Source of the DNA: Escherichia phage vB_EcoM_CRJP21
DNA length: 64,000 nt
Strand: one strand, 5' to 3'
Sequence record: OQ708376.1
This document shows, in pieces, positions 43,586 to 55,638 of this stretch. Position 1 is the stretch's first letter. Each line of letters begins with the position of its first letter. A model generated the notes under the pieces. The model was given only the letters and a program-made list of their open reading frames with translations, made no database searches and was not told where the DNA came from. The translations under genes were made by a program, and so were the position numbers.

Positions 43586-44570
43586 TTAAACACAAGTAGA
43601 CAGGGGAAGCTCCTAGTGAACAACCTTTATGTACAGGCGAATTGTTAAAATTCAGCCTGGACAAATGCGATCACTAGGATTCTCCCCAGGCTAAACCCCG
43701 TAATCATAGGTAGTCATAAGTAATCATATATAAACATTTATATGAGCACCGTAGAATCACAGAATGATTATATATGATTCAGTACTGATTAGTATAGACA
43801 AGAATTCTCAAGAATGCACGGGAAGGATTCAGTACTGATATGCCACTAAGTAGGCAGAGGAAGTCTGCCGTACTTTGTAGTTTCCAAGCTCCTTTTCCAT
43901 TTTTCAAATTACATCAAATGTAATCAAAAGTAATCACGCAATGATTAGTACTGAATTATTACTTTCACCTTAATTACAATTACCCTTTTACCCTTCGGGG
44001 TAAAATTCAATTACCCCTTGAGGCTCCAGCAAAAAGTTGGTTAGTACTCCATCCTAAATCTCGATCCTAAAAATTTTGGAGTACCTATGAAATAAAAGTT
44101 GGATCTTCGAAAGTTGAAATTTACGTTGGGACGTTTATGATTTGTGGGATATAATGATGTTTGTAGACGGGTAGTTCTCAAGAATATCAGTACTGAAAGA
44201 TGAAAGAAAGTTATTGACTTTATGATTCAGTACTGTATAATGTTCTACATAGGGTGATGAGTTGCTGCGAACAATTCATTTACTCTACCTCCTGTCGTGA
44301 GACAGTACAGAAAAGATAGTTCCTCCTGTGGTGGTACATCTTTTTGAACCTCATATGAAAATCGTAATAACAGTACTGATATTAACAGAATGGTGTCAGT
44401 ACTGATTTTAATCTAAAGCATTATGCCACCAGCACAAGCTGGTGGATTCCCTCTAACAGTATTCAGTACTACATGATGGTCTTCATCCTCCTAGGGTAAC
44501 ATAGTGAGGGCTATGATGGCAGTACTGAATACTCCCTTTCAAAAGATAGATCTATGGTATAGTACTGACG

Positions 44571-44759
44571 GATTTTGGGCGTAGTTACCCTGGATGGATT
44601 TTGGGCGTAGATATGTCTAGCCCTCCAGAAGTCTGGAAGTAAAGATGGCTATCCATCTAGACGGCTAAACGGCTAGATTTCTGGATGGCTGGATGGCTAG
44701 ACGTTTGGACGGCTAAACGGCTAGATGGTTACACGTCTGGAAGTATAGACGGCTAAATC
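44571..44759. repeat. iteron-like short direct repeat cluster (GGATTTTGGGCGTAG x2; ACGGCTAAACGGCTAGAT x2; GGATGGCT x2; GTCTGGAAGTA x2)
   Basis: direct repeats read in ORF-free region. Confidence 0.7.
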
Positions 44760-45384
44760 AAAATTTTATTTTGTTTTTTCCAATAGTTCCCCTACCGCGT
44801 GGGGATAGTTTCCCCGCAGTATCTGGTGTTAGATTTTTCTGAATCTGGAATCATTATCTTATAAACTGGGGGCAATGTCAACGGCCTGGCCGGATATTTT
44901 TAAAAATTTTTTCAGTACTGAATTTTGGGCGTAACTATGCACCCGGTGGGCTTGAGTCTTTCTCGACTTGATGGAACTATTATACAGTACTGGAAAAATA
45001 AAGCAATACCCTGGAAGCAAAAAAGTTTTAATTAATTTGCTTGCTATCCTGGGCCGGACTATGGTACTATATTTCAGTACTGAGAAAGTGCGTTTACCTG
45101 CTAGGGTGCGGGAGTGTATCCTTTTTTTATATCTTGAATTTTGGACGGATCTTCCCACCCCCTGGGGTATCCGCTTTCTCGCGTCTATGTAGTAATTATA
45201 CGCTTTTTCAGGATCAAGTCAATACCTAAAAACAAAATAATTGAAAATAATTTAACGCGTTTAAACGGCCTGTAAAGCCCTGGAATGATTGGAATGGTGC
45301 AAATGTATAGCTTATGTGTATTAATGCGTTAGAATGCGTCTGAGGACGTTTTACGGGGTATAGGGATGATTTAGTGGATTGATT

Positions 45385-45471
45385 CAGTACTGAATAATAG
45401 TACTCCTATATAGAAAGATAGTTCCCCTGGATGATTGCAGTACTGAATAATAGTACTCCTATATAGAAAGA
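45385..45471. repeat. 34 bp direct repeat x2 (CAGTACTGAATAATAGTACTCCTATATAGAAAGA) separated by 19 bp
   Basis: two identical copies at 45385-45418 and 45438-45471. Confidence 0.8.
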
Positions 45472-45502
45472 AAACTATTTTAAAAGTATTTGTAGAAAGT
45501 AC

Positions 45503-45561
45503 TTGCACCGTACTGATAAAAGCGTATAATGTTTTACATCGAGAGCGGGAACACTTCCCGC
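45503..45561 (+). promoter_or_regulatory. promoter (TTGCAC-N16-TATAAT) + 5' stem-loop AGCGGGAAC-N-TTCCCGCT
   Basis: first of about 25 promoter/5'-hairpin cassettes. Confidence 0.6.
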
Positions 45562-45585
45562 TACACATTAAGAGAGATTAAAACG

Positions 45586-45948
45586 ATGGCGACTCAAATC
45601 AATAAAATCATGCTTAACCTGGTAAACTTCCGCGATGAGATGAAAGGTCTTCCGGCTGAAACTGTAAAAATTCACATTGCAGCTTATCGGGAACTTATTG
45701 CAATGTTGCCGCTTAAGCGTGAACAATACGCCGCTACTTTGATGCTGGATTCAATGATCCATATAATGATCTCAAATGATTTGACGATGGTTTATCAGTA
45801 TATGGGCGAAAATTTCGCGGTGTGTAGTAAGCCAGTACCAGGGATGGCAACAACTGAGGAATTGCACGGCTTAAACTTAAAACAAGATGCATGGGATAAT
45901 ATGCCTCGTTTCCTGGTATGGGCTGACAGTGGCAAAATTTACAAATAA
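45586..45948 (+). CDS. hypothetical protein (120 aa)
   Basis: ORF track 45529-45948; ATG 45586 downstream of promoter and hairpin. Confidence 0.55.
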   Translation: MATQINKIMLNLVNFRDEMKGLPAETVKIHIAAYRELIAMLPLKREQYAATLMLDSMIHIMISNDLTMVYQYMGENFAVCSKPVPGMATTEELHGLNLKQDAWDNMPRFLVWADSGKIYK

Positions 45949-45962
45949 GTTTAATAAAGTAC

Positions 45963-46021
45963 TTGCAAACTATGTTTAATGGCGTATAATGTTTTACATC
46001 AGGTGGGGAATAGTTCCCCAC
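45963..46021 (+). promoter_or_regulatory. promoter TTGCAA-N16-TATAAT + 5' stem-loop GTGGGGAA-TAGT-TCCCCAC
   Basis: consensus hexamers; hairpin at predicted +5 to +25. Confidence 0.6.
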
Positions 46022-46041
46022 TATATAAGAGGATTAAAAAA

Positions 46042-46281
46042 ATGGCTAAATCAAAAATGTTCTTAGGTCACAAAAACAAAACTCATTGGAATGTAAGCCT
46101 TTGGATTAATAACGATGAGGGATTGTATCGGTTGGCCCAGGACTTTATTAACGATAGCACTAATCGCAATGATGCGGCCCGTCATATGATGTTATTTTTA
46201 GAACAGACTGGACAAGATAAAACACCGGACGGATTCAAATATAGCACTACTGCGATCCGTGCGGCGATGGTTGGAATGTAA
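46042..46281 (+). CDS. hypothetical protein (79 aa)
   Basis: ATG 46042 after GAGGAT. Confidence 0.55.
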   Translation: MAKSKMFLGHKNKTHWNVSLWINNDEGLYRLAQDFINDSTNRNDAARHMMLFLEQTGQDKTPDGFKYSTTAIRAAMVGM

Positions 46282-46291
46282 TAGAATTTAT

Positions 46292-46330
46292 TTAAAGTAC
46301 TATCATTTTTTTGCGATAGTACTTTATAAT
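46292..46330 (+). promoter_or_regulatory. palindrome-containing promoter-like element (AAAGTACTATC-N10-GATAGTACTTT then TATAAT)
   Basis: inverted repeat + -10 hexamer; no good -35. Confidence 0.4.
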
Positions 46331-46367
46331 AGTGTTTTATTCATACACCAACGATAAGGGCAACAGC

Positions 46368-46634
46368 ATGAAAATTAAGTATTTTGCGACGCGTGAACAA
46401 GCTCGGATCGCCGCACGCCAGGACGGGGCAACGTTTAAAGATATGGGCGTACAATCGGAACGTGGTAAACGTTGGGCCATTGTAAAGCGTAGTACCGCCA
46501 GATCATTACAGTACTGGTTAGCGGCCTTAAAAAGTCCCGATAGTGTATCGCGTCGAGTGGTAGAAATAAAGCTCGACCGAAAGGGCAACCGCGTGACCGT
46601 GTACCGTACTAAAAAGATTGCAGTACTTGAATAA
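46368..46634 (+). CDS. hypothetical protein (88 aa); paralog of 58345-58740
   Basis: MKIKYFATREQARIAARQDGATFKDMG vs MITKFYATREAARIVAREEGAAFKDMG. Confidence 0.6.
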   Translation: MKIKYFATREQARIAARQDGATFKDMGVQSERGKRWAIVKRSTARSLQYWLAALKSPDSVSRRVVEIKLDRKGNRVTVYRTKKIAVLE

Positions 46635-46642
46635 AAAGTACT

Positions 46643-46700
46643 TGCAAACTATGTTTAATGGCGTATAATGTTTTACATCGAGAGCGGGAACTCTTCCCGC
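46643..46700 (+). promoter_or_regulatory. promoter TTGCAA-N15-TATAAT + 5' stem-loop GCGGGAAC-N-TTCCCGC
   Basis: near-identical to cassette at 45963. Confidence 0.6.
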
Positions 46701-46721
46701 CTATAACCTGGAGTAATGAAA

Positions 46722-46952
46722 ATGACTAATATGTATATGACTGAAGTTAAAACCGTAAAAGATACTACCACGAATAAAACTACTTACTTACAGCGGATCT
46801 GTGGTGTATGGCAACGTATCAGCAAATCAAAGTACTTTAAATTAACATCATATGCAAACCGTTCGGATTCATTCAGTACTGAAATAAAAGGTAATAAAGT
46901 ACACCAATACGGCACTTATTATTATTATAGCCTGGACGCGATTGCAGTATAA
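46722..46952 (+). CDS. hypothetical protein (76 aa)
   Basis: ORF track 46716-46952; ATG 46722 has better spacing from GGAG. Confidence 0.5.
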   Translation: MTNMYMTEVKTVKDTTTNKTTYLQRICGVWQRISKSKYFKLTSYANRSDSFSTEIKGNKVHQYGTYYYYSLDAIAV

Positions 46953-47202
46953 GCAGTTTACAAATCTTTACAATTGCCGGTATTGACTTATTTTGTCAGT
47001 ACTGGCATAATGTATTCATTGGCAGATAAGCCGTAGCCCATAGGGTGCGGGAGTGTATCTATAGAAAAATTAGTTTAGTATAGTTACAATTGTGCACCCG
47101 GTGGGTTAGCTGTTGTCATGGGGTATATTATACCAGTACTTGATAATGCTGTCAATACTTTTTTTTTACTATTCAGTACTGAAAACTATTTTTAAAAAGT
47201 AC

Positions 47203-47348
47203 TTGCAAACTATGTTTAAAGGCGTATAATGTTTTACATCAGGACGGGGAACGAAATAAGTAACTTCCCGTTAAGTAGCCCAGGAGTAAGGCACACGAAA
47301 AACTCCCCTGATAAAATAGTTTGACAAATGTTTTTAAAAGCGTATAAT
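47203..47348 (+). promoter_or_regulatory. tandem promoters (TTGCAA..TATAAT and TTGACA..TATAAT) flanking about 80 nt structured leader
   Basis: two consensus promoters about 118 bp apart; leader holds CGGGGAAC...CCCCG-type hairpins; second copy at 57123-57267. Confidence 0.55.
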
Positions 47349-47380
47349 ACTTACATCAACTACTGAATGAGGGTTACAAA

Positions 47381-47992
47381 ATGAAAACTATCACTACTAC
47401 TACTTATGTTATGGCTTTTTCTGAATTGAACGCAGAACAACAAACGTCAGCTATCGAACTGGTTCGGGAACGTGAAAAAAACTCAAACGACAATTATTTT
47501 TCTGAAAGTGAAATTGAATACTATAAAGAAACAGTACTACCGGAATATGGCATTAATGACGCTGAAATACAATTCAGTGGTTTTTGGTCCCAGGGTGACG
47601 GTGCATCAATCAGTACTGACCACGTTGACGCAGTGAAGTTTTTACGCAAGGTAAGAGCATTAACTAAGTATCGCTCAATCCGTCACTTGCTGAATGAAGA
47701 TGATTTGGCGATGAGTGTAAAACGTTCGCACTCCCACTACTCGCATGAGAATACTGTAAGCGGGTACATTGAATCGGCTTACACTGATTTAACCGCAAAA
47801 CAAGAAACGTTAGTTAATGAGCTTGAGGAACTACTCACTGAAACTATTCGTGAATTGTCCCGCAAGTTGTACCGTGATTTAGAGAATGCATATGAGGATC
47901 AATTCACTACTGAAAACATTACGGCACTGATTGAGGGTAACGAATATCAATTCAATGTTATTGATGGCGTAGTAGAATCAATCGAATATTAA
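47381..47992 (+). CDS. hypothetical protein (203 aa)
   Basis: ORF after tandem promoter element; GAGGGT RBS. Confidence 0.6.
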   Translation: MKTITTTTYVMAFSELNAEQQTSAIELVREREKNSNDNYFSESEIEYYKETVLPEYGINDAEIQFSGFWSQGDGASISTDHVDAVKFLRKVRALTKYRSIRHLLNEDDLAMSVKRSHSHYSHENTVSGYIESAYTDLTAKQETLVNELEELLTETIRELSRKLYRDLENAYEDQFTTENITALIEGNEYQFNVIDGVVESIEY

Positions 47993-48005
47993 TTTAAAAA
48001 GTACT

Positions 48006-48075
48006 TGCAAACTAAGTTTAAAAGCGTATAATACTTTATATCGAGAGCGGGAATAGTTCCCGCTACTAATGAGGA
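48006..48075 (+). promoter_or_regulatory. promoter TTGCAA..TATAAT + 5' stem-loop AGCGGGAATAGTTCCCGCT
   Basis: cassette architecture. Confidence 0.6.
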
Positions 48076-48084
48076 ATACTACAA

Positions 48085-48249
48085 ATGAATACTTTTACCT
48101 TCGCTCAATTGAACGCCCTGGATGTATTGTCTGATGCTTTGCGGGATGCAACTGAAAGCGGTTTATTTGACAATGTTGACATTCACCCTGATGTAATTAA
48201 TAATTTTTGTGATGCTATCGCAGAAGTACTGGAAGATCTAAAAAAATAA
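48085..48249 (+). CDS. hypothetical acidic protein (54 aa)
   Basis: GAGGAAT RBS after promoter/hairpin cassette; below track cutoff. Confidence 0.45.
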   Translation: MNTFTFAQLNALDVLSDALRDATESGLFDNVDIHPDVINNFCDAIAEVLEDLKK

Positions 48250-48258
48250 TAGAAAGTA

Positions 48259-48319
48259 CTTGCAATTAGTTTTCAGTACTGTATAATGGTTTACATCAAA
48301 GGGAGAAATGGTTCTCCCT
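48259..48319 (+). promoter_or_regulatory. promoter TTGCAA-N18-TATAAT + 5' stem-loop GGGAGAA-ATGG-TTCTCCC
   Basis: cassette architecture. Confidence 0.6.
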
Positions 48320-48337
48320 GGTAATGAGGAAAATACA

Positions 48338-48559
48338 ATGGCTAATATCACTACTCTTTCCCAACTGGAAGCACTGGTTAAATCTATGCGGGAACATGCT
48401 GACAAAATCGGCGTACAAGATCCAGCCGTTTGCTTCTGCGACGAATTGAATGATGATACCCTGGTAATAGCAGAAGTCCAGGACGTTTCTAACTATTCCT
48501 CGCGTTACACTGGCGGCGTAGCAAATAAAGGTGACTTCTGTTTATACCTTACAAAATAA
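48338..48559 (+). CDS. hypothetical protein (73 aa)
   Basis: ORF track 48308-48559; ATG 48338 after GAGGAAAAT. Confidence 0.55.
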   Translation: MANITTLSQLEALVKSMREHADKIGVQDPAVCFCDELNDDTLVIAEVQDVSNYSSRYTGGVANKGDFCLYLTK

Positions 48560-48563
48560 CAAC

Positions 48564-48593
48564 GCGGGGAGATAATAACTCCCCGTTACTTTT
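48564..48593 (+). terminator. intrinsic terminator (CGGGGAG-N-CTCCCCG + T-run)
   Basis: hairpin + TTACTTTTT. Confidence 0.6.
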
Positions 48594-48727
48594 TCAGTAC
48601 TGAATCATTTAATAGACGGATCTCGGCACCCGGTGGGTTAGTGACTGTTTCGTCTTGATGTAGTAATTATGCCAGTACTGGATGCACTTGTCAACAATTA
48701 TTTTCCAAATACTTTTTATTAAAATAC

Positions 48728-48783
48728 TTGCAATTAGTTTTTAAACGCGTATAATGTTTTGCATAGGGGGAGCGGTTCCCCTG
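48728..48783 (+). promoter_or_regulatory. promoter TTGCAA..TATAAT + 5' G-rich stem-loop
   Basis: cassette architecture. Confidence 0.55.
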
Positions 48784-48802
48784 GTAACTAAGGAATAATA
48801 AA

Positions 48803-49039
48803 ATGCTTGAACAAATCAAATCAACGTCTTCGAATGTAACGGGAACGGTAGCACACTTTACTAGTGATGAATCGCGGGGCGTTCCCTATTGTGCTGTACA
48901 TGTAAACACTGAGGGTAACTACTGGTTTACGGTTTACGGATCATATTCATTTGGACGGCCTGGACATCAAAAAATTCTGGATAAAGTACAACCAACGGGT
49001 AAAAATATCACTGCCGAAATGTTTTATAAAAAATCATAA
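48803..49039 (+). CDS. hypothetical protein (78 aa)
   Basis: AAGGAAT RBS. Confidence 0.55.
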   Translation: MLEQIKSTSSNVTGTVAHFTSDESRGVPYCAVHVNTEGNYWFTVYGSYSFGRPGHQKILDKVQPTGKNITAEMFYKKS

Positions 49040-49044
49040 AGTAC

Positions 49045-49103
49045 TTGCAATTAGTTTTTAGTACTGTATAATATTTTACATCGCAAGGGGAAACGGTTTC
49101 CCC
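49045..49103 (+). promoter_or_regulatory. promoter TTGCAA-N16-TATAAT + 5' stem-loop GGGGAAAC-GG-TTTCCCC
   Basis: cassette architecture. Confidence 0.6.
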
Positions 49104-49123
49104 TGGTAACTAAGGATAATCAA

Positions 49124-49423
49124 ATGAAAATTGCAATCATCGCCCTGGCTTTATCTGTTTCCTCTTTCGCTGTTAATGCGTCATTAGATGTAAGTAGTGA
49201 AAAATTCATTCAGTGCACTGTTGCAATGACCGATGAAAGAACTGGCGAGATTGTATTAAAGGATTTAGAGATCCAGCCGGAAGCATTTAAAAACGGCCCG
49301 TTCCATGAAGAAGACGAAAACGGTAGCACGACAATTTATTATGATGCCAGTACTAAACGCGGTTCGGTCACTGTAATGGATACCGAGAAAGTAACTCATA
49401 CCGGCGTTATTAATTGCCGTTGA
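49124..49423 (+). CDS. secreted protein (signal peptide)
   Basis: N-terminus MKIAIIALALSVSSFAVNAS. Confidence 0.55.
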   Translation: MKIAIIALALSVSSFAVNASLDVSSEKFIQCTVAMTDERTGEIVLKDLEIQPEAFKNGPFHEEDENGSTTIYYDASTKRGSVTVMDTEKVTHTGVINCR

Positions 49424-49444
49424 TAGATACTACGGGGTAACATC

Positions 49445-49675
49445 ATGACTAAGCGAATTGTTTTACTTAACGAAAGCAGTACTACACAACTACTTAACGC
49501 CGTGCATTATGATATTGAAACGAGCGTTAATCTTATCAGTACTGTAGTTCTGTTGGACACTGGAAAGGTAGCCAATGATAAAGCGATTGCAGGTATACTA
49601 ACGGATCTTGTGCCTGGTAGCAGTGCACCAATAACGTTAAATGGTAAAGTGTTTAATATTTTACTCACTGATTAA
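49445..49675 (+). CDS. hypothetical protein (76 aa)
   Basis: ORF in track; GGGG-rich RBS. Confidence 0.45.
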   Translation: MTKRIVLLNESSTTQLLNAVHYDIETSVNLISTVVLLDTGKVANDKAIAGILTDLVPGSSAPITLNGKVFNILLTD

Positions 49676-49681
49676 GTACAT

Positions 49682-49709
49682 AGCCCACCTGGTGGGCTTT
49701 TTTGTTTTT
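49682..49709 (+). terminator. intrinsic terminator (AGCCCACC-TGGT-GGGCT + T-run)
   Basis: hairpin + T6GT5. Confidence 0.7.
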
Positions 49710-49757
49710 GTAGTATCGTAGTACTGAGATACTTTGAAAATAGTTTTAAAAAAGTAG

Positions 49758-49785
49758 TTGACATTACCACAGAAAAGCGTAGAAT
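49758..49785 (+). promoter_or_regulatory. promoter TTGACA-N16-TAGAAT with about 120 nt leader
   Basis: hexamers read; long leader before ATG 49909. Confidence 0.5.
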
Positions 49786-49908
49786 GTATTACATCAAGAC
49801 GGGGAGCACTAAGTAGACCGCCAGTAAGTCGAACGAAAAACTGGACACGTCGAGAAAACTTTGATACACTAATAAACGTAAACTAAACTTTAATTGAGGA
49901 TTTATAAA

Positions 49909-50391
49909 ATGGCTAATGTAAAATCATTCATCAAAGCACTGGTAGCAAATGAAACTAACGTCGCGGCTGAGATCCTGGCTGAACTGGATAACGATACCAT
50001 GAAAGCGGTACGCAACAATTTTAACATTGCGTACAGTGAAGCTAAAGAACTGCAAGCCAAAAAGGTAGCAGAACTGGAAGAACAGAAAAAAGCCCGTGAA
50101 GCAGAACTACAAGCAACAATTGAAAGTATTCAGGCGGCAGTGTCTGGATTGGATCTGGAAGTGGTTGTAGAAATGGCACATAAAGCCCTGGCGGTTAAGT
50201 ACGGTGAAGATAAGCCGGAATCTAAACCTAAAAAATGGATTCAAGAACGTGTTACTGTAGTACTTGATAACGGTGAAGAACATTTGATTCCTGTACGCGG
50301 TAACTGCATTGCGGTAGTACTGGACGCTATCAAAGAAAGCGGTATGACTCGCGAGGAATGGATCGAAGCTCATCGCAAAGTTGAAGCATAA
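49909..50391 (+). CDS. hypothetical protein (160 aa)
   Basis: ORF track 49894-50391; ATG 49909 after GAGGAT. Confidence 0.55.
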   Translation: MANVKSFIKALVANETNVAAEILAELDNDTMKAVRNNFNIAYSEAKELQAKKVAELEEQKKAREAELQATIESIQAAVSGLDLEVVVEMAHKALAVKYGEDKPESKPKKWIQERVTVVLDNGEEHLIPVRGNCIAVVLDAIKESGMTREEWIEAHRKVEA

Positions 50392-50412
50392 CAATTAAAG
50401 TACTGAATCACT

Positions 50413-50439
50413 AGCCCACCTTAAACAGTGGGCTTTTTT
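50413..50439 (+). terminator. intrinsic terminator (AGCCCAC-N-GTGGGCT + T6)
   Basis: hairpin + T-run after gene stop. Confidence 0.7.
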
Positions 50440-50593
50440 GTGTCTGTAGTATTCCAGTCCACCAGCACCGCCTAGAATCGATTCTAACGCATTAAACTGA
50501 TTATCTGATACATCGCCCTAGCTGGTGGCGTTAAGGTCGTTAGAATGCGATTGAGAGCGTTTAAAGTATTTTGCAAAAAGTAATAAAAAGTAC

Positions 50594-50655
50594 TTGCACG
50601 ATTAAGAGATTAGCGTATAATGTTTTACATCGAGAGGGGGAAACGGTTCTCCTTC
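50594..50655 (+). promoter_or_regulatory. promoter TTGCAC..TATAAT + 5' stem-loop
   Basis: cassette architecture. Confidence 0.55.
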
Positions 50656-50676
50656 CAAATCAAAGGAATCAAAACA

Positions 50677-50904
50677 ATGGCTATTATCATTACTCGCGTA
50701 TCTGGTACTACTGGCAACGAACAAGTAGTTGCAGTCATTACTAACAAGGCAGGTGCGGAATTGCAAAATGCAATGAATACCTGGGCCGTTAATGAGTTCG
50801 GTCAGTGGGCAAGTGTAGCATACATTGAAACCTATCAAGTGCCGTCGATTAGTTTAACTGATTTGGGCGTTGAGCGTATCCTTTGCCTGGATGAATTAAA
50901 TTAA
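50677..50904 (+). CDS. hypothetical protein (75 aa)
   Basis: ORF track 50620-50904; ATG 50677 after AAGGAAT. Confidence 0.55.
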   Translation: MAIIITRVSGTTGNEQVVAVITNKAGAELQNAMNTWAVNEFGQWASVAYIETYQVPSISLTDLGVERILCLDELN

Positions 50905-50913
50905 AAAAAGTAC

Positions 50914-50973
50914 TTGCAAAGTAAATCGAATAAAGTATAATACATTACATCAAGGGGAGAAATGATTCTCCCC
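50914..50973 (+). promoter_or_regulatory. promoter TTGCAA-N16-TATAAT + 5' stem-loop GGGGAGAA-ATGA-TTCTCCCC
   Basis: cassette architecture. Confidence 0.6.
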
Positions 50974-50990
50974 ACTACAAGGAAACTAAA

Positions 50991-51203
50991 ATGGCTATCA
51001 TTACTAAAATCAAAGTTAACAAGACTATCGTTAAACTGGCAGAAGTGAAAGAAGGTTATAAAGTATCTTGGTGCGGTATGTATCGGACGTTCGCAGATAT
51101 AGATGATGCGATCAATTATTACAGTGACACGGTTAAAAACTTTGTTCGTGCTGATGTGGTTATGGCAGTGGCAACATATAAAGCAGCGAAAGAAAGTAAG
51201 TAA
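50991..51203 (+). CDS. hypothetical protein (70 aa)
   Basis: AAGGAAAC RBS. Confidence 0.55.
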   Translation: MAIITKIKVNKTIVKLAEVKEGYKVSWCGMYRTFADIDDAINYYSDTVKNFVRADVVMAVATYKAAKESK

Positions 51204-51226
51204 AAATATTATCACAGTACTATTGA

Positions 51227-51261
51227 CATAGTTTGATAGTACTGGCATAATAGATTTTATC
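51227..51261 (+). promoter_or_regulatory. promoter with embedded palindrome AGTACTAT-TGACATAGTTTG-ATAGTACT (operator-like), -10 CATAAT
   Basis: 8 bp inverted arms flank -35 TTGACA and spacer; the same or a closely related palindrome architecture recurs at 46292, 53833, 54093, 58262 and 61888. Confidence 0.55.
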
Positions 51262-51294
51262 AAGACGACACATATTAATTTAAGGAATACTAAA

Positions 51295-51618
51295 ATGGCT
51301 AAAACTATCATCAACACCGTTTCCCTGGCTGCAATCCATGCAATCAATGTTGACGGTAAACGTTGGACTGATTCATATGGCAATACTTATCATTCTTGTC
51401 ATGTAAGCGTTGAACTGGATAACGGCTTGAATGATCTGGCGGTTGAATCATTTACTTATGGCTATGAGGATGCATATCAACAAACGGCGGTATCACTCTT
51501 AAAGGAATCAGTAGACGGGCTTGATACTGTTGAAACCTCCCTCTATCGTTTGTGCAATGATCTTAATATCCCGTTGCATTGTACTGTACAGGATGTAAAA
51601 CGTAAAAAAGATCTTTAA
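51295..51618 (+). CDS. hypothetical protein (107 aa); paralog of 57926-58249
   Basis: shared W/RWTD-x-GNTYHSC, FTYGY, DVKRKKD segments. Confidence 0.6.
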   Translation: MAKTIINTVSLAAIHAINVDGKRWTDSYGNTYHSCHVSVELDNGLNDLAVESFTYGYEDAYQQTAVSLLKESVDGLDTVETSLYRLCNDLNIPLHCTVQDVKRKKDL

Positions 51619-51698
51619 TTAGCTTTACTTTATGCAGATACTTTGATATAGTGTCTGCATAGGGGAAAGAAATTAAATCAACTTAAGAGGAAAGTAAA

Positions 51699-51968
51699 AT
51701 GAAAAATATCAGTACTTTAATCGATGCAGGTACACATGTTCGTCGGTCTATGGTTGCAACCAGTTCTACAAAACAAGTAGCGAGCGGTTATCTTGTATTT
51801 GTGCACGATGGAAAACTCCTGGAACGTTCAATCAATTTTGATGTTAAAAACAATTGCCGTTTTATTATCTTTCGCCGTGAACAATATAAAATTGATTTGC
51901 CAGCGAAGCCCATTAGCGGGGCGTACAACGTGCAATCATTGTTTGAGCGTCAACCTTACACCTATTAA
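51699..51968 (+). CDS. hypothetical protein (89 aa)
   Basis: AGAGGAAAGT RBS. Confidence 0.5.
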   Translation: MKNISTLIDAGTHVRRSMVATSSTKQVASGYLVFVHDGKLLERSINFDVKNNCRFIIFRREQYKIDLPAKPISGAYNVQSLFERQPYTY

Positions 51969-52019
51969 TCAAAACATCGTTAGCGGTCGATTTAGGCCGC
52001 TTATATTGGGGATTATACC

Positions 52020-52292
52020 ATGAACGTTAATCAAGTACTGAATGAGATCGAAAGCATCATTAAACCGATGAAGCGTACTGATGCTATGTTAACACCGGAA
52101 GAATGCCGCCTTTATGAGCGTTACAGCGTCGAACAAGTCCAGGCAATGGCTATGGCTACCCCAGCCGTTTCACCGCCTGAGAATGCGTTACAGGACGTTA
52201 CAGGGGATTATATCATTAATCCAGTACTAGGGAAGATGACTGCAATCACCGAAGATCAAAAAGACTACTTAAGCCAGTACTTAAAAGGTTAA
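52020..52292 (+). CDS. hypothetical protein (90 aa)
   Basis: ORF in track. Confidence 0.5.
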   Translation: MNVNQVLNEIESIIKPMKRTDAMLTPEECRLYERYSVEQVQAMAMATPAVSPPENALQDVTGDYIINPVLGKMTAITEDQKDYLSQYLKG

Positions 52293-52297
52293 TTAAT

Positions 52298-52507
52298 ATG
52301 CTTACTGTACAGGATAAGATCGACATCTTAAAGGTTAATATGTATGTGATTGATGCCGTACCTGGTAAAGTATTTGCATACGATGATAGTACTGTAAGCG
52401 ATTTCTACTATAGCCAGGACGTGGGGGATCTTTCTGTACAGTCGGTTATTGAAAACGTAGTTAATGCAGCGTATGAGCATTTACTTTCAAATAGTACTTG
52501 CAATTAG
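52298..52507 (+). CDS. hypothetical protein (69 aa)
   Basis: ORF in track; 3' end overlaps next promoter. Confidence 0.45.
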   Translation: MLTVQDKIDILKVNMYVIDAVPGKVFAYDDSTVSDFYYSQDVGDLSVQSVIENVVNAAYEHLLSNSTCN

Positions 52508-52557
52508 TTTTTAAACGCGTATAATGTTTTACATGAAGGGGAGAAATGATTCTCCCC
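52498..52557 (+). promoter_or_regulatory. promoter TTGCAA-N16-TATAAT + 5' stem-loop GGGGAGAA-ATGA-TTCTCCCC
   Basis: cassette architecture. Confidence 0.6.
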
Positions 52558-52575
52558 AATAACAGGAGAAACAAA

Positions 52576-52728
52576 ATGAAACAATACAACGCTCGGTTTG
52601 ATGTTACTATCGGTAACGGCAAAGGTCAATTCTCTTTCAGTACTCGCCGCAGTTATACAGAAAACTTCCTGCGTAATTGTGCACTGACCGCCGCTCAAAT
52701 TAAACACTATTTTCAGGCTAAAAAATGA
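52576..52728 (+). CDS. hypothetical basic protein (50 aa)
   Basis: ORF track 52546-52728; ATG 52576 after AGGAGAAAC. Confidence 0.45.
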   Translation: MKQYNARFDVTIGNGKGQFSFSTRRSYTENFLRNCALTAAQIKHYFQAKK

Positions 52729-52814
52729 AATCATTAGCTTATTACAGTTCGGCCCTGGTCGGTGCATTGATCGCGGCATTGTTAGTAACCTATCTATTCT
52801 TTATGGTGATTTAA
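52725..52814 (+). CDS. putative membrane micro-protein (29 aa)
   Basis: ATGA overlap with upstream stop; single hydrophobic helix; speculative. Confidence 0.25.
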   Translation: MKSLAYYSSALVGALIAALLVTYLFFMVI

Positions 52815-52958
52815 ATGAATCCAACAGGTTTAAACTATAAAAGTTGTTCTGCATTTACGAAAGCAAATAAAGCGAATGCACGTAAAGCGAAAGTACAGGA
52901 ATACATCAAGCAAGGCATGACGCGAAAAGCGGCGATTATAAAAGCTAAAAATAAATGA
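52815..52958 (+). CDS. putative basic micro-protein (47 aa)
   Basis: ATG directly after upstream stop; ends at terminator element; speculative. Confidence 0.25.
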   Translation: MNPTGLNYKSCSAFTKANKANARKAKVQEYIKQGMTRKAAIIKAKNK

Positions 52959-52963
52959 AAAAA

Positions 52964-52996
52964 GTGGTTGACTTCGGTCAGCCATTTTGTTATTAT
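52964..52996 (+). terminator. bifunctional terminator/promoter element (variant)
   Basis: GGTTGAC-TTCG-GTCAGCC; TATTAT downstream. Confidence 0.55.
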
Positions 52997-53089
52997 ATAT
53001 TCATTGAGAGATAGCTCACTAGCCCACAGGGTGCAGGAGTGTATCTATTGTATGAGTATTGAGTACTGAAAACTATTTTTAAAAAGTAC

Positions 53090-53148
53090 TTGCAAACTAT
53101 CTCAATAAGCGTATAATGTTTTACATCGAAAGGGGAAACGGTTTCCCC
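53090..53148 (+). promoter_or_regulatory. promoter TTGCAA-N16-TATAAT + 5' stem-loop GGGGAAAC-GG-TTTCCCC
   Basis: cassette architecture. Confidence 0.6.
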
Positions 53149-53168
53149 TGGTAATAAGGAAACAAATC

Positions 53169-53510
53169 ATGACTATCTCAATTGCTCAATCTAACTTTGA
53201 AAATGAAATCATCGCCCAGGCACTGCGTTTAAATGATGGTCGGGCCGAAATTAATTACGGTTTCAATTCAGGCGGTTGCGAAAAATATCAGTACTTTGTA
53301 ACGGCTGATGGCGGTGTCCTGGGTATCAATACAGTTATTGTAAACATCCAAAAAATTAATTTCAATGATCCAGACGATAGCCAGTTTTACATCACTGGCG
53401 TAGACGTGAACTATGAGGATGACTCACTAACTGATGATCACACTGGCGAGCGGTTAGAAAGTGCATACGGTGAAGATGATTATCAGTCCGGTCCAGAAGA
53501 TTTCGAATAA
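53169..53510 (+). CDS. hypothetical acidic protein (113 aa)
   Basis: AAGGAAAC RBS. Confidence 0.55.
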   Translation: MTISIAQSNFENEIIAQALRLNDGRAEINYGFNSGGCEKYQYFVTADGGVLGINTVIVNIQKINFNDPDDSQFYITGVDVNYEDDSLTDDHTGERLESAYGEDDYQSGPEDFE

Positions 53511-53524
53511 TATAAAAAAATAGT

Positions 53525-53584
53525 TTGACAATAGATTATAGTACTGTATAATAGTTTACATCAAGGGGAGAAAAACTTCTCCCC
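53525..53584 (+). promoter_or_regulatory. promoter TTGACA-N16-TGTATAAT + 5' stem-loop
   Basis: cassette architecture. Confidence 0.6.
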
Positions 53585-53606
53585 ACTAACAGAGAGAGAA
53601 AACAAA

Positions 53607-53819
53607 ATGGCTAATATCCGGTCGAAATTAAAAAATGCAAAACAAGTTTTATTTTCAGATCATGAATACTTTAATAAAGATATTACAGGAGTTACAAGTA
53701 TCAAGGAAGTAAAAGAAAAAACCGGCGTTTTGTGTGATGTGCGATTAGTTGGAACATTTGGGAATAACGTGCTATATCGCTGCGGTGATTACAATTTTAC
53801 ACTGACTATCATTAACTAA
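53607..53819 (+). CDS. hypothetical protein (70 aa)
   Basis: AGAGAGAGA RBS-like. Confidence 0.5.
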   Translation: MANIRSKLKNAKQVLFSDHEYFNKDITGVTSIKEVKEKTGVLCDVRLVGTFGNNVLYRCGDYNFTLTIIN

Positions 53820-53832
53820 AAATATTATCACA

Positions 53833-53867
53833 GTACTATTGACATAGTTTGATAGTACTGACATAAT
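53833..53867 (+). promoter_or_regulatory. palindrome-containing promoter (AGTACTATTGACATAGTTTGATAGTACT)
   Basis: same architecture as 51227. Confidence 0.55.
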
Positions 53868-53901
53868 AACTTTTATCAACTACACTATTAAGGAATTAAA
53901 A

Positions 53902-54081
53902 ATGGCTATCATCGCAAAAACTGAAATCGTTGGTCTGGATTCTATCATCATGACGTTTGAAGATCAAAAAGGTATGTATGTAGTTTCATATGGTGATTAT
54001 GTTCGGGAGTATGAAACGGTAGACGAAGCCTTTGAAAGTTACATTCGCCAGGTGAATAAAGCATACGACGATTACCGCTAA
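53902..54081 (+). CDS. hypothetical protein (59 aa)
   Basis: AAGGAAT RBS; below track cutoff. Confidence 0.45.
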   Translation: MAIIAKTEIVGLDSIIMTFEDQKGMYVVSYGDYVREYETVDEAFESYIRQVNKAYDDYR

Positions 54082-54092
54082 AATATATTACC

Positions 54093-54136
54093 AGTACTAT
54101 TAAAGATATTGACAACGTTTGATAGTACTGTATAAT
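54093..54136 (+). promoter_or_regulatory. palindrome-containing promoter (AGTACTAT..TTGACA..ATAGTACTG TATAAT)
   Basis: same architecture as 51227. Confidence 0.55.
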
Positions 54137-54180
54137 AAGTTTTATCAACAGTAGTTAACTTAACCTAAGAGAGAAATAAA

Positions 54181-54324
54181 ATGATCGCACTGGATTCATT
54201 CATCGACGCAGTACTGGCAAAAACTGGCGAGGATCTGACCGCAGAACAATACGCAATGATCGAGCAATGCCAGCAAGACGGTAAATCGGTGAAAGATACT
54301 GTTAAGATTATCCGCAAGATGTAA
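54181..54324 (+). CDS. hypothetical protein (47 aa)
   Basis: AGAGAGAAAT RBS-like; below track cutoff. Confidence 0.4.
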   Translation: MIALDSFIDAVLAKTGEDLTAEQYAMIEQCQQDGKSVKDTVKIIRKM

Positions 54325-54330
54325 GATTAT

Positions 54331-54362
54331 AGCCCACTGGTTAACGCTGGTGGGCTTTAATT
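54331..54362 (+). terminator. terminator-like hairpin AGCCCACTGG-N-CCAGCGGGCT-like with weak T tract
   Basis: inverted repeat read; T-run weak. Confidence 0.4.
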
Positions 54363-54429
54363 CATTACCCTATACAATGCCAGTACTAAACCGTTTATCT
54401 CGTTAGAATGCGTTACAGGACGTTTAACA

Positions 54430-54627
54430 ATGATTAGCATGAAATCAGTACAAAAACAAATAGAAACATTATCAAAAATTAAACGTAAACAGTACTCCTT
54501 AGAATATACAATCAATGGTAACTATCATCTAATGAAAGAGAATAATTTTATAGTCATTGATGAATCATTGCAAATCATTAGTATAGTACTGAAAGCATTA
54601 ATCAATGACAGAAAAAAATTAAAATAA
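54430..54627 (+). CDS. hypothetical protein (65 aa)
   Basis: ORF in track; AT-rich. Confidence 0.4.
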   Translation: MISMKSVQKQIETLSKIKRKQYSLEYTINGNYHLMKENNFIVIDESLQIISIVLKALINDRKKLK

Positions 54628-54631
54628 ACTA

Positions 54632-55216: not shown

Positions 55217-55222
55217 AAAGTA

Positions 55223-55250: not shown

Positions 55251-55279
55251 GTTTTATATCTTAACTGAGGATAGAAATC

Positions 55280-55636: not shown

Positions 55637-55638
55637 TA

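What the first reader, a model, noticed from the sequence alone, without database searches (positions are those of the whole stretch)
45328..54421. Repeated motif CGTTAGAATGCG-N7-GACGTTT
Near-identical ~30 bp motifs occur at about 45328-45357 and 54391-54421, with a related form at about 50527-50555 inside an imperfect palindromic region (50460-50570). All are non-coding and outside the standard promoter cassettes. They could be a distinct promoter class (perhaps for the phage sigma factor) or binding sites.
Basis: inference. Interest (0 to 1): 0.4.

Follow-up and report, generated by a model that had tools for sequence, protein, structure and literature searches.

The report
Conserved mobile-element box in terminal repeat
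The repeated ~26-bp motif is real, but it occurs only in this jumbo phage's 20-kb terminal repeat and belongs to a sequence family shared with T5-like phages (inside their DNA-injection stop region), other large phages, chromosomal islands and plasmids, so it is not a promoter for the phage's own sigma factor but an apparently undescribed cis-acting element, probably read by host machinery.

Summary
The motif is real, but the spacing is N6, not N7: CGTTAGAATGCG-N6-RRCGTTT. It occurs at 45327, 50538 and 54401, with a fourth, degenerate copy at 52176 inside an ORF. All four are on the + strand, against 0.01 expected by chance.

The window is an Asteriusvirus (121Q/fEgEco12-like). The confirmed physical terminus of fEgEco12 maps to window 43849, so all copies lie 1.5-10.6 kb inside the ~20-kb direct terminal repeat. 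None occurs elsewhere in the window, and pattern scans found none elsewhere in the 121Q genome.

The same box, T[TC]AGAA[TCA]GCG-WTNNAG-RRCGTTTTAG preceded by an A-run, occurs in:
- T5-like phages, once per terminal repeat, inside the annotated injection stop signal
- RaK2-like terminal repeats, in inverted orientation
- Stephanstirmvirinae and SPN3US-like jumbo phages
- thrW-adjacent islands
- IncX plasmids, beside oriV
- ColE2-type and rolling-circle plasmids, upstream of rep

T5 uses only host sigma-70 RNA polymerase, so a phage-sigma promoter class is not supported. Sigma-70 promoter, terminator, mini-ORF, RNA hairpin, known ssi and Rfam readings each failed at least one test.

Best reading (moderate confidence): an orientation-specific recognition site for conserved host machinery, placed upstream of the first-expressed or replication module. 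I found no description of it.

The parts
45327..45354 (+). Site 1: CG-TTAGAATGCG-TCTGAG-GACGTTTTAC. It lies about 1.48 kb from the physical left end of the terminal repeat, in a 1.9-kb non-coding leader, and about 150 nt upstream of the first early promoter (TTGCAC 45503, TATAAT 45525).
   Evidence: Conserved at the same place in fEgEco12, vB_Ec-M-J and 121Q.
50538..50565 (+). Site 2: CG-TTAGAATGCG-ATTGAG-AGCGTTTAAA. It lies about 100 nt after a terminator hairpin (50413-50439) and about 30 nt upstream of an early promoter (TTGCAC 50594, TATAAT 50616).
54401..54428 (+). Site 3: CG-TTAGAATGCG-TTACAG-GACGTTTAAC. It lies 42 nt after a Chi-containing terminator-like hairpin (54331-54358) and ends just before the ATG (54430) of a 65-aa ORF.
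52176..52203 (+). Degenerate fourth copy, CC-TGAGAATGCG-TTACAG-GACGTTACAG, embedded in ORF 52020-52292 and read there as ..PENALQDVTG... It is 20/21 identical to site 3, including the spacer.
   Evidence: (conserved in L064 and L037).
50473..50493 (-). Inverted partial copy of the left unit (ATTCTAACGCATT = reverse complement of AATGCGTTAGAAT), overlapping the palindrome TAGAATCGATTCTA, 47 nt upstream of site 2. The same 'inverted unit about 45-57 nt upstream' arrangement is seen in IncX and ColE2-type plasmids.
50459..50528 (.). Inverted Chi pair (CCACCAGC 50459 / GCTGGTGG 50521) bracketing the palindromic region just upstream of site 2. This is context, not part of the box.
43849..64000 (+). 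Direct terminal repeat that holds all copies. fEgEco12 nucleotide 1 (termini confirmed by PhageTerm and restriction digests; repeat of 20,993 bp) aligns to window 43849, and fEgEco12 ~20,993 aligns to the window end.
   Evidence: BLAST mapping; PMC13070987; vB_Ec-M-J 'Direct Terminal Repeats' 1-21525.

Best explanation
The box is a sequence-specific, orientation-specific cis-acting DNA element. It belongs to a family that many unrelated mobile elements of Enterobacterales carry in non-coding DNA, at the upstream border of the module that is expressed or used first after entry: phage early genes in terminal repeats, plasmid rep genes or oriV, and island early operons.

Its anatomy is an A-run, 3-4 G/C bases, then T[TC]AGAA[TCA]GCG-WTNNAG-RRCGTTTTAG. 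This can be read as an imperfect 9-8-9 palindrome or as three phased decamers with GCG every 10 bp.

Small plasmids with no candidate binder of their own, and phages that share no detectable proteins, keep the same 26 bp. The reader of the site is therefore most likely a conserved host factor or host DNA-transaction machine, not a phage protein.

In this phage the four co-oriented copies would mark or insulate early transcription units in the first 11 kb of the terminal repeat.

**Shown:** the family, its anatomy, its placement and its orientation bias.

**Inferred:** that it acts as a protein-recognition site, that the protein is host-encoded, and what binding achieves.
For: - **Non-chance repetition.** Four copies against 0.01 expected, all on the + strand.
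- **Positional conservation.** The four copies keep their positions in fEgEco12, vB_Ec-M-J and 121Q, and all lie inside the terminal repeat.
- **T5-like phages.** The same box occurs once per terminal repeat, at AY543070 9350-9374, inside the annotated injection stop signal, between the terminator palC and palD with its DnaA boxes.
- **Other phages.** It occurs in the RaK2/Muenster terminal repeat, Stephanstirmvirinae and SPN3US-like phages.
- **Plasmids and islands.**
  - It occurs in 1405 E. coli records and 2325 PLSDB records.
  - IncX plasmids carry it beside iterons and DnaA boxes.
  - Elsewhere it lies upstream of ColE2-type rep, Rep_1 rep, and the early operon of a thrW-adjacent island.
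- **Family profile.** There are 112 unique variants. Positions T0, A2, A4, A5, G7-C8-G9, A14-G15 and C18-G19-T20-T21 are invariant, and an A-run occupies -8..-5.
- **Promoter context.** A strong sigma-70 promoter lies within 300 nt downstream, co-oriented, in 43/121 loci. The controls are 5 upstream, 6 divergent and 0 convergent.
- **No shared protein.** No protein is shared between the window and T5 1-50 kb or with the island's small neighbour protein. The 5.7-kb ColE2-type plasmid carries the box but has only six annotated genes.
Against: - **No binding protein was identified.** No consensus I know for an E. coli DNA-binding protein fits (IHF, Fis, DnaA, LexA, ArgR, Lrp, DeoR, RcsB, XerCD, Tus). 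These comparisons were made from memory only.
- **No near-consensus copy in core bacterial chromosomes.** The genome-contig scan gave only chance-like hits plus a T5-like contaminant. Only 1235 of 5426 E. coli genomes have any match, all in accessory DNA where examined. A host regulator without chromosomal sites would be unusual.
- **Variable geometry.** The distance to the downstream promoter ranges from -15 to about 260 nt, and the box is inverted in RaK2-like phages. This argues against a classical activator or repressor geometry.
- **Non-independent counts.** Many of the 43 promoter-linked loci are close relatives.
- **A single-strand reading is not excluded.** The box sequence itself folds into a strand-specific hairpin.
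Confidence: 0.4

Rival explanations
1. The box is a strand-specific hairpin element that acts when the + strand is single-stranded, as DNA during replication or entry, or as RNA. Positions 0-8 (TYAGAAYGC) would pair with 17-25 (GCGTTTTAG), using G-T/G-U wobbles, around an 8-nt loop. It could be a priming, assembly or processing signal.
For: - This hairpin is the minimum-free-energy fold in about 70% of 104 variants, with a mean z of -2.4 against shuffles.
- Position 6 varies T/C, and both pair with G19. T0 pairs with G25 or A25 in 90%.
- On the opposite strand the wobbles become C-A mismatches, which would explain the strict strandedness.
- The outward extension of the stem shows slightly more complementarity than permutations (4/500).
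- The box is placed next to rep genes and oriV in plasmids.
Against: - Changes at position 1 (T to C, 35/104), position 17 (G to A, 27/104) and position 3 (G to C) are never compensated.
- Flank pairing is no better than expected.
- The alternative outer stem shows no covariation (55-61 of 500 permutations).
- Loop positions G9, A14 and G15 are as invariant as the stem.
- The PWM finds nothing in the phiX174 n'-site, the G4 origin or ColE1.
- The 'ssi' of pIGRK, delimited by the authors' primers, is unrelated (PWM -22).
- In the ColE2-type plasmid the box is about 4.5 kb from the origin in the inferred direction of replication (inference).
- Rfam has no match.
Confidence: 0.2
2. In the lytic phages the box is a translated mini-ORF, ATG-CGW-NNN-AGR-RCG-TTY-stop, giving M-R-(L/F/Y/S)-R-(T/A)-F. 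It would be a leader or arrest peptide, or a tRNA-sequestering minigene, in the first DNA to enter the cell.
For: - In all lytic-phage copies the ATG is present.
- Most variable positions fall on third codon positions: CGA/CGT, AGG/AGA, TTT/TTC, TAG/TAA.
- The window copies read MRLRTFYGV*, MRLRAFKVFCKK* and MRYRTFNND*.
- The site 3 mini-ORF overlaps the start of ORF 54430.
- R-x-R resembles the '+x+' macrolide arrest motif. This is from memory only.
Against: - Bona fide family members lack the ATG: AACGCG in 32 of 112 and AAAGCG in 4.
- L122 and L103 have TAG as codon 3, and L108, L109 and L111 have AGC at codon 4.
- There is no Shine-Dalgarno sequence upstream.
- Enrichment of variation at third positions is only about p = 0.07 by my hypergeometric estimate.
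- The box sits after terminators and before promoters, so it is probably poorly transcribed.
- It is antisense to the early genes in RaK2-like phages.
- The peptide strings are absent from the literature.
Confidence: 0.08
3. The box is a promoter: either a distinct class for the phage-encoded sigma factor or a host promoter using TAGAAT as the -10 element with a GCG discriminator.
For: - TAGAAT is a good -10 hexamer.
- Asteriusviruses do encode a sigma factor (PMC13070987).
- Site 3 has no other promoter before ORF 54430.
- A GTAT lies exactly 20 nt upstream of TTAGAAT in T5, site 1, L070 and L079.
Against: - No -35/-10 pair is detected at any site.
- T-7 of the putative -10 is C or A in 36 of 112 family members, and T-12 is C in 36.
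- No further copies exist in the window, and pattern scans found none elsewhere in the 121Q genome.
- The box is present in T5-like phages, which use sigma-70 only, and in plasmids.
- SPN3US-like phages have their own early promoter consensus 35-45 nt downstream of the box.
Confidence: 0.05
4. The box is a recombination site or cassette junction. It could be the core of a tyrosine-recombinase-type site (9-bp arms, 8-bp variable centre), or a conserved linker that lets unrelated mobile elements exchange early-gene modules.
For: - It has a 9-8-9 imperfect inverted-repeat architecture with a partly variable centre.
- Unrelated elements share mosaic flank similarity:
  - 'ccctatacaatgcc' upstream of both site 3 and L069, and in inverted orientation in site 1, L070 and L079
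  - 'attaaactgatt' upstream of site 2 and L122
  - 'gctatattag' after the box in T5-like phages and L069
- The fourth copy and the MobA copies show that the box can be captured into genes.
Against: - T5 and small ColE2-type plasmids encode no matching recombinase.
- The arms do not resemble XerC/XerD sites, a comparison made from memory.
- The gene order around the four sites is stable among Asteriusviruses.
- The strong conservation of the 26-bp core against diverged flanks argues for selection on the core rather than recent transfer.
Confidence: 0.12

Closest known systems
Injection stop signal (iss) / Repeat Region 3 of the phage T5 left terminal repeat (Heusterspreute 1987; Wang 2005; Davison, bioRxiv 10.1101/866236)
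   Same: The T5 copy of the box (AY543070 9350-9374; AY587007 9271-9295) lies inside the annotated iss (9140-10149). It sits directly after the last pre-early terminator (palC) and about 60 nt before palD, IRD' and the DnaA boxes. As in this phage, it is in a long direct terminal repeat that carries small early genes.
   Different: The box is not one of the named repeats or palindromes of the iss, and Davison's figure starts at 9330, after it. T5 has one copy per repeat near the inner end, whereas this phage has four spread over 1.5-10.6 kb. No two-step injection is known for Asteriusviruses. The box also occurs in plasmids, which are not injected.
Single-strand initiation signals / primosome assembly sites of plasmids and phages (phiX174 n'-type, G4-type; 'ssi-like palindromic sequence' of pHW126-like plasmids)
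   Same: Both are non-coding, orientation-specific, hairpin-capable elements next to rep genes or origins in small enterobacterial plasmids (including R6K/IncX and ColE2 types, in which ssi signals were reported) and are non-essential accessories (PMC6854812; 10.1101/2022.12.05.519187).
   Different: There is no sequence match to the phiX174 F-G intergenic n'-site, the G4 complementary-strand origin, ColE1 or the primer-delimited pIGRK ssi. The hairpin lacks compensatory changes. The ssi sequences of R6K and ColE2 themselves (Nomura 1991) could not be obtained.
PeSL (promoter-early stem-loop) regulatory cassettes of T4-type phages
   Same: Both are short conserved non-coding modules between small early genes in hyperplastic regions, and both are shared among phages. 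This window is full of such sigma-70 promoter + stem-loop + RBS cassettes.
   Different: The box is distinct from those cassettes. It has no -35/-10 pair, it lies upstream of them, and it is shared far beyond one phage family, including plasmids.
ColE2-P9 type replication origin (Rep primase binding/priming site)
   Same: They share the words TCAGA, ACAGCGC and a T-run. The box co-occurs with ColE2-type Rep genes in two plasmid groups.
   Different: The canonical ColE2 origin is present separately, right after rep, in the same plasmid (L133 ~1249-1300), and spacing within the box differs by about 5 nt. The box also occurs in replicons without ColE2-type Rep.
Short arrest or leader mini-ORFs (ErmDL-type M-R-L-R '+x+' peptides; lambda bar minigenes)
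   Same: The phage copies read as 6-12-codon ORFs starting M-R-x-R.
   Different: The ATG and the reading frame are not conserved across the family, and there is no SD. The resemblance is from memory only.

Membership tests
Sigma-70 promoter | -35 (TTGACA-like) and -10 (TATAAT-like) hexamers 16-18 bp apart, or an extended -10 (TGn) | tested here: not met
   The consensus scan finds no promoter overlapping the box at site 1, site 3 or the T5 copy. The bases preceding TAGAAT are CGT or GCT, not TGn.
Sigma-70 promoter | Invariant A-11 and T-7 in the -10 hexamer across functional homologues | tested here: not met
   The position equivalent to T-7 is C in 32 and A in 4 of 112 variants. The position equivalent to T-12 is C in 36.
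Phage-sigma / late promoter class | Motif recurs genome-wide upstream of the genes of one temporal class (late or structural) | tested here: not met
   There are only 4 copies, all in the terminal repeat. The 348,532-bp 121Q genome gave only the three equivalent sites in three pattern scans.
Phage-sigma / late promoter class | Motif restricted to phages that encode the cognate sigma factor | tested here: not met
   The box is present in T5-like phages (host sigma-70 only; PMC7472727), IncX and ColE2-type plasmids, and chromosomal islands.
Intrinsic (rho-independent) terminator | GC-rich stem with a 3-8 nt loop, immediately followed by a U-run | tested here: not met
   The terminator scan does not call the box. 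The only stem directly followed by the T-run has a 13-nt loop, exists in a minority of variants, and shows no covariation. Canonical terminators lie separately, 40-100 nt upstream.
Protein-coding mini-ORF / leader peptide | Start codon, open frame and stop conserved in all homologues | tested here: not met
   The ATG is replaced by ACG or AAG in 36 of 112. TAG occurs at codon 3 in L122 and L103. No frame is consistently open.
Structured RNA family (Rfam) | Match to a curated covariance model | tested here: not met
   No hit at any box copy at E<=1 in the window 43-58 kb, T5, IncX, ColE2-type or island loci.
Structured RNA/ssDNA hairpin (new) | Base pairs maintained by compensatory changes | tested here: inconclusive
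   The core pairs are invariant or change on one side only. T/C at position 6 both pair with G19, but changes at positions 1, 3 and 17 are uncompensated. Support for the stem extension is weak (4/500).
phiX174-type or G4-type ssi / pHW126-type ssi | Sequence similarity to an experimentally defined ssi | tested here: not met
   The best PWM scores are -1.9 (phiX174), -11.7 (G4), -7.5 (ColE1) and -22 (pIGRK), against 41.6 for a true member.
phiX174-type or G4-type ssi / pHW126-type ssi | Supports complementary-strand priming on SSB-coated single-stranded DNA in one orientation | not testable with these tools
   Needs the M13 delta-ori plaque assay or in vitro priming.
T5 injection stop signal | Lies in the non-coding region at the inner end of the first-step-transfer DNA | tested here: met
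   This applies to the T5 copy only, at 9350-9374 within the annotated iss 9140-10149.
T5 injection stop signal | Required in cis for the pause of DNA transfer | not testable with these tools
   No mutational data for this 26-bp box were found in the papers read. Nothing is known for Asteriusviruses.
Tyrosine-recombinase core site (dif/cer/lox-like) | Two inverted recombinase-binding arms flanking a 6-8 bp central region | tested here: inconclusive
   The 9-8-9 imperfect symmetry is present (6-7 of 9 arm positions symmetric). However, the arms do not resemble XerCD sites (from memory), and no cognate recombinase is encoded in T5 or the small plasmids.
Host transcription-factor regulon site | Related sites upstream of chromosomal target genes in the host | tested here: not met
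   There is no Enterobacteriaceae chromosomal hit in 185,579 species genomes for the exact pattern. E. coli matches are limited to plasmids and accessory islands.

The most novel reading that the evidence does not exclude
The box is a previously unrecognised 'establishment' signal common to many enterobacterial mobile elements. It would be read by one conserved host machine at the moment foreign DNA arrives. In phages with long terminal repeats, it would be a cis component of staged DNA entry. That would make the sequence basis of the long-unresolved T5 injection stop directly testable, and it would predict paused, multi-step genome entry, with up to three or four stops, in Asteriusvirus and RaK2-type jumbo phages.
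Probability: 0.12. Interest if true: 0.85.

Novelty: new variant of a known kind. Interest (0 to 1): 0.6.

Why it matters
- **An unusual level of conservation.** A 26-bp non-coding sequence is kept almost letter for letter in T5-like siphoviruses, 350-kb jumbo myoviruses, SPN3US-like phages, chromosomal islands, IncX conjugative plasmids and 4-6-kb ColE2-type or rolling-circle plasmids. These elements share no detectable proteins. Such a sequence must be read by something they all meet, namely the host.
- **A handle on the T5 injection stop region.** The box gives a small, mutable target inside a region whose active sequence has never been pinned down.
- **A practical marker.** The box marks the early or terminal-repeat region of several phage groups used in therapy, and it marks IncX plasmids that carry mcr-1 and carbapenemase genes.

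Tried and rejected
- **N7 spacing as written.** It gives zero matches.
- **tRNA or tRNA fragment.** ARAGORN finds none in the window.
- **Rfam family.** No match.
- **T5 nick site.** The nick sites share CCCTGCG|CT, which is unrelated to the box.
- **Shared T5/Asteriusvirus protein that could bind the box.** tblastn of all window ORFs against T5 1-50 kb found nothing significant. T5 50-122 kb was not searched. The island's 60-aa neighbour protein is absent from both.
- **Host chromosomal regulon site.** None found.
- **G4-type primase site.** No similarity.
- **phiX174 n'-site or ColE1 origin/pas.** No PWM match. The resemblance I recalled to the pUC origin 'GAAAAACGCCAGCAACGCGGCCTTTTTACGG' is not borne out at PWM level.
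- **pHW126/pIGRK 'ssi-like palindrome'.** It was located with the authors' deletion primers and is unrelated.
- **ColE2 origin.** It is a separate element in the same plasmid.
- **Frpo single-strand promoters of F-type leading regions.** The one 147-kb IncF-type plasmid hit I examined lay in colicin-plasmid-like DNA rather than the leading region. Other large-plasmid hits were not checked.
- **Outer 'bidirectional terminator' stem (A-run/CGC ... GCG/T-run).** No covariation.
- **Long ORF through the box.** No frame is consistently open.
- **Literature searches.** Searches by peptide string and by 10-11-mer DNA strings returned nothing relevant.
- **Consensus comparisons done by eye from memory.** I compared the box with IHF, Fis, Lrp, DeoR (TGTTAGAA half-site), RcsAB, SlyA, CsrA, the ops element, boxA, sigma-E/28/32/54 and KorB. 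None fits all variants, and none counts as a test.

Full report
**1. The observation**

Reading the three places confirms a shared block. The pattern as written, with N7, matches nothing. With six spacer bases, CGTTAGAATGCG-N6-GACGTTT matches at:
- 45327-45351 (0 mismatches)
- 54401-54425 (0 mismatches)
- 50538-50562 (2 mismatches)
- a fourth place, 52176-52200 (3 mismatches)

All four are on the + strand, against 0.01 expected from dinucleotide-preserving shuffles.

The fourth copy is inside ORF 52020-52292. It is 20/21 identical to site 3, including the spacer TTACAG, so it is homologous rather than a chance match. A PWM built from all homologues and a relaxed regex find no other copy on either strand of the 64-kb window.

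The palindromic region noted upstream of site 2 is real. It contains an inverted pair of Chi octamers (50459 and 50521), a perfect 14-nt palindrome TAGAATCGATTCTA (50473), and an inverted partial copy of the motif's left unit (50481).

**2. Where the window comes from and where the sites sit**

[quoted passage not shown] Its nucleotide 1 aligns to window 43849, and its repeat end aligns to the window end. vB_Ec-M-J is annotated the same way.

Window 43849-64000 is therefore the terminal repeat. The four copies lie 1.48, 6.7, 8.3 and 10.6 kb from the physical end, all pointing inward. The same four copies sit at equivalent positions in fEgEco12 and vB_Ec-M-J, and the three strong ones in 121Q.

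The repeat is packed with small genes behind near-identical sigma-70 promoter + stem-loop + RBS cassettes.
- Site 1 lies in the 1.9-kb non-coding leader, about 150 nt before the first cassette.
- Site 2 follows a terminator by about 100 nt and precedes a cassette by about 30 nt.
- Site 3 follows a terminator-like hairpin by 42 nt and abuts the start of a 65-aa ORF.

**3. The motif is not specific to this phage**

An exact-pattern scan of IMG/VR found the box in about 30 contigs of 104-122 kb, including T5 itself, twice per genome. In T5 it is at AY543070 9350-9374. That places it in the left terminal repeat, inside the annotated 'injection stop signal (iss)' 9140-10149. It lies directly after the last pre-early terminator (palC) and about 60 nt before palD, IRD' and the paired DnaA boxes. 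Davison's comparative study of 25 T5-like iss regions names many repeats, but not this box, and his figure begins at 9330.

Looser scans found the box in other large phages:
- RaK2. In its relative Muenster the box is about 2 kb from the end of a PhageTerm-predicted 20,030-bp terminal repeat, but on the opposite strand, immediately upstream of CDS_004.
- Klebsiella Stephanstirmvirinae.
- SPN3US-like jumbo phages, 35-45 nt upstream of a TATATATTAC element that I take, from memory, to be their phiKZ-type early promoter.

A BLAST of four variants against 5,426 complete E. coli genomes hit 1,405 records, with 873 places on plasmids and 614 on chromosomes. PLSDB gave 2,325 records. The contexts examined were:
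- IncX plasmids, with two copies about 180 nt apart, between the oriV iterons and DnaA boxes and a phd/yefM-relE module.
- A 5.7-kb ColE2-type plasmid, with the box about 200 nt upstream of rep and the canonical ColE2 origin separately downstream of rep.
- MOBQ/ColE2-type plasmids, where the box is embedded in the 3' part of mobA and read as ..QNALQDVL...
- A Rep_1 rolling-circle plasmid.
- thrW-adjacent islands with a capsid gene, where the box lies about 100 nt upstream of a TTGACA-17-TAATAAT promoter and an early operon.

A metagenome scan added many more. By contrast, one representative genome of each of 185,579 bacterial species gave only chance-like hits and a T5-like contaminant. None was in an Enterobacteriaceae chromosome.

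**4. Anatomy of the family**

From 112 unique variants, the consensus is AAAA (-8..-5), C/T, three G/C-rich bases, then T0 [T/C] A G A A [T/C/A] G C G | W T N N A G | R R C G T T T T A G | R G G.
- Positions 0, 2, 4, 5, 7-9, 14, 15 and 18-21 are invariant.
- The sequence can be read as an imperfect inverted repeat, with arms 0-8 and 17-25 and an 8-bp centre.
- It can also be read as three phased decamers, with GCG every 10 bp.
- In several elements an inverted copy of the first unit lies 45-57 nt upstream: window 50481, IncX, and the ColE2-type plasmid, where it forms the loop of a 10-bp A5CG/CGT5 hairpin.
- Unrelated elements also share patches of flank. For example, 'ccctatacaatgcc' precedes site 3 and L069, and occurs inverted before site 1, L070 and L079. 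'attaaactgatt' precedes site 2 and L122.

**5. Tests of specific mechanisms**

*Promoter.* No -35/-10 pair overlaps the box in the window or T5. The -10-like TAGAAT loses its key T in a third of the family. The box is absent from the rest of the window, and three pattern scans found no further copy in the 121Q genome. T5 uses sigma-70 for all gene classes. SPN3US-like phages carry what looks like their own early promoter downstream of the box.

*Terminator.* Canonical terminators lie separately upstream. The only stem abutting the T-run has a 13-nt loop and shows no covariation.

*Mini-ORF.* In lytic phages the box reads ATG-CGW-NNN-AGR-RCG-TTY-stop (M-R-x-R-T/A-F), with variation concentrated at third codon positions. 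This was attractive, but family members with ACG or AAG in place of ATG, with TAG at codon 3, or with AGC at codon 4 exclude it as the common function. No frame is consistently open.

*Hairpin.* The + strand can fold 0-8 onto 17-25 with G-U pairs. This is the minimum-free-energy structure in about 70% of variants (mean z of -2.4), and the T/C polymorphism at position 6 is pair-neutral. Frequent changes at positions 1, 3 and 17 are uncompensated, and flank pairing is at expectation. Only the stem extension shows a weak excess (4/500). This is inconclusive.

*Known priming signals.* The PWM finds nothing in the phiX174 n'-site region, the G4 origin or ColE1. The literature describes a non-essential 'palindromic sequence similar to ssi' upstream of the REP module of pHW126-like plasmids. 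I located that element in pIGRK with the authors' deletion primers, and it is unrelated to the box.

*Other tests.* Rfam has no match. No protein is shared between the window and T5 1-50 kb.

**6. Placement rule**

Across 121 distinct loci, a strong sigma-70 promoter (at least 10/12 matches) lies within 300 nt downstream on the same strand in 43. The controls are 5 upstream on the same strand, 6 divergent and 0 convergent. Distances from the box to the promoter range from about -15 to 260 nt. Many of these loci are related, so the counts are not independent.

The typical order is terminator, then box, then first promoter of an early or replication module. The RaK2-like inversion is the clear exception.

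**7. Interpretation**

What is shown:
- a real, strongly constrained, orientation-biased 26-30-bp element
- confined here to the terminal repeat
- a member of a family spread across unrelated mobile elements of Enterobacterales
- usually found at the upstream edge of the first-used module, and in T5 inside the iss

What is inferred:
- Elements as small as a six-gene plasmid, and as different as T5 and a 350-kb myovirus, keep the same letters.
- Loop and stem positions are equally invariant, and compensatory changes are absent. Recognition is therefore more likely sequence-specific protein binding than a free-standing nucleic-acid fold.

I put about 0.4 on this reading, 0.2 on a strand-specific single-strand hairpin signal, about 0.12 on a recombination or cassette-junction role, under 0.1 on the mini-ORF and 0.05 on any promoter.

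**8. Novelty**

I found no description of the box:
- It is not among the named T5 iss repeats.
- It is not in Rfam.
- It did not turn up in full-text searches for the peptide or DNA strings.
- It is not the ssi elements I could test.

This remains the main route by which the box could turn out to be already known. As a kind of thing, a cis-acting recognition site in non-coding mobile-element DNA is familiar. Its breadth across phages, islands and plasmids, and its presence in the T5 injection stop region, are not.

Noticed in passing
window 44426-62638 (Chi at 44438, 50521, 54346, 55808, 57076, 59426, 60831, 62408, 62631 on +; 44426, 50459 on -): Chi octamers (GCTGGTGG) are strongly enriched in the terminal repeat. 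There are 9 on the + strand in 20 kb of a 35% GC genome, against 2 in the other 44 kb, plus two head-to-head inverted Chi pairs. Chi lies 10-50 nt upstream of sites 2 and 3, and of site 1 in 121Q. This may protect the linear ends from RecBCD.
   Followed up: partly
whole window; densest at 40000-64000: AGTACT occurs 280 times in 64 kb, against roughly 20 expected from composition. CAGTACTG occurs 59 times, 15 of them in 44-48 kb. It is built into the early promoter cassettes (AAAGTACTTGCAA ... CAGTACTGTATAAT) and also occurs on its own.
   Followed up: no
window 44627-44754: A tandem array of about 16 eight-bp units (AGACGGCT, AAACGGCT, GGATGGCT, AGACGTTT ...) lies in the non-coding leader of the terminal repeat. 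From memory it resembles tandem MetJ 'met boxes' (AGACGTCT). One unit (GGACGTTT) resembles the right end of the box.
   Followed up: no
window 43849 and 64000: The physical genome end of fEgEco12 maps to 43849, and the end of its terminal repeat maps to the last base of the window. The window therefore appears to be the right end of a genome record: about 44 kb of unique DNA followed by the whole right terminal repeat.
   Followed up: yes
window 45384-45470: Two direct copies of a ~32-nt unit (cagtactgaataatagtactcctatatagaaaga) lie between site 1 and the first early promoter. Function is unknown.
   Followed up: no
window 45195-45222 (- strand): A near-consensus sigma-70 promoter (TTGACT-16-TATAAT, 11/12) points leftward towards the genome end, in the non-coding leader about 100 nt upstream of site 1. 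No ORF follows it.
   Followed up: no
L035 1854-1873 (T5 AY587007 9330-9349, 'palindrome D'): T5 palD, ACTGTATAAATATACAGT, fits the LexA-box pattern CTGT-N8-ACAG perfectly. Related T5-like contigs (L067, L071) have a similar box 8 nt after the motif. It is not discussed as an SOS box in the T5 paper read.
   Followed up: no
window 52020-52292; L153, L164, L257 mobA 3' end: The box can be embedded in genes in one particular frame, giving ..(Q/E)NALQDV(L/T).. both in a terminal-repeat ORF of this phage and in MOBQ relaxases of ColE2-type plasmids. This may be capture of the DNA element by coding sequence.
   Followed up: partly
window 45365-45373: A two-codon minigene, ATG ATT TAG, sits directly after site 1, preceded by AGGG. 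From memory it is reminiscent of lambda bar minigenes (ATG ATA TAA). It may be coincidence.
   Followed up: no
window 43000-58000: At least 16 copies of an ~80-nt early cassette are present: AAAGTACTTGCAA-N16/17-TATAAT, TTTACATC, a GGGGAGAAAnnnTTCTCCCC stem-loop, and an RBS. It resembles the PeSL cassettes of T4-type phages.
   Followed up: partly
L133 1249-1300 vs box: The canonical ColE2 origin (..CCTTATCAGATAACAGCGCC..ttttttt) shares the words TCAGA, ACAGCGC and a T-run with the box variant TCAGAATGCGATACAGCGCGTTTT. Whether this reflects common ancestry or a common priming chemistry is unknown.
   Followed up: partly
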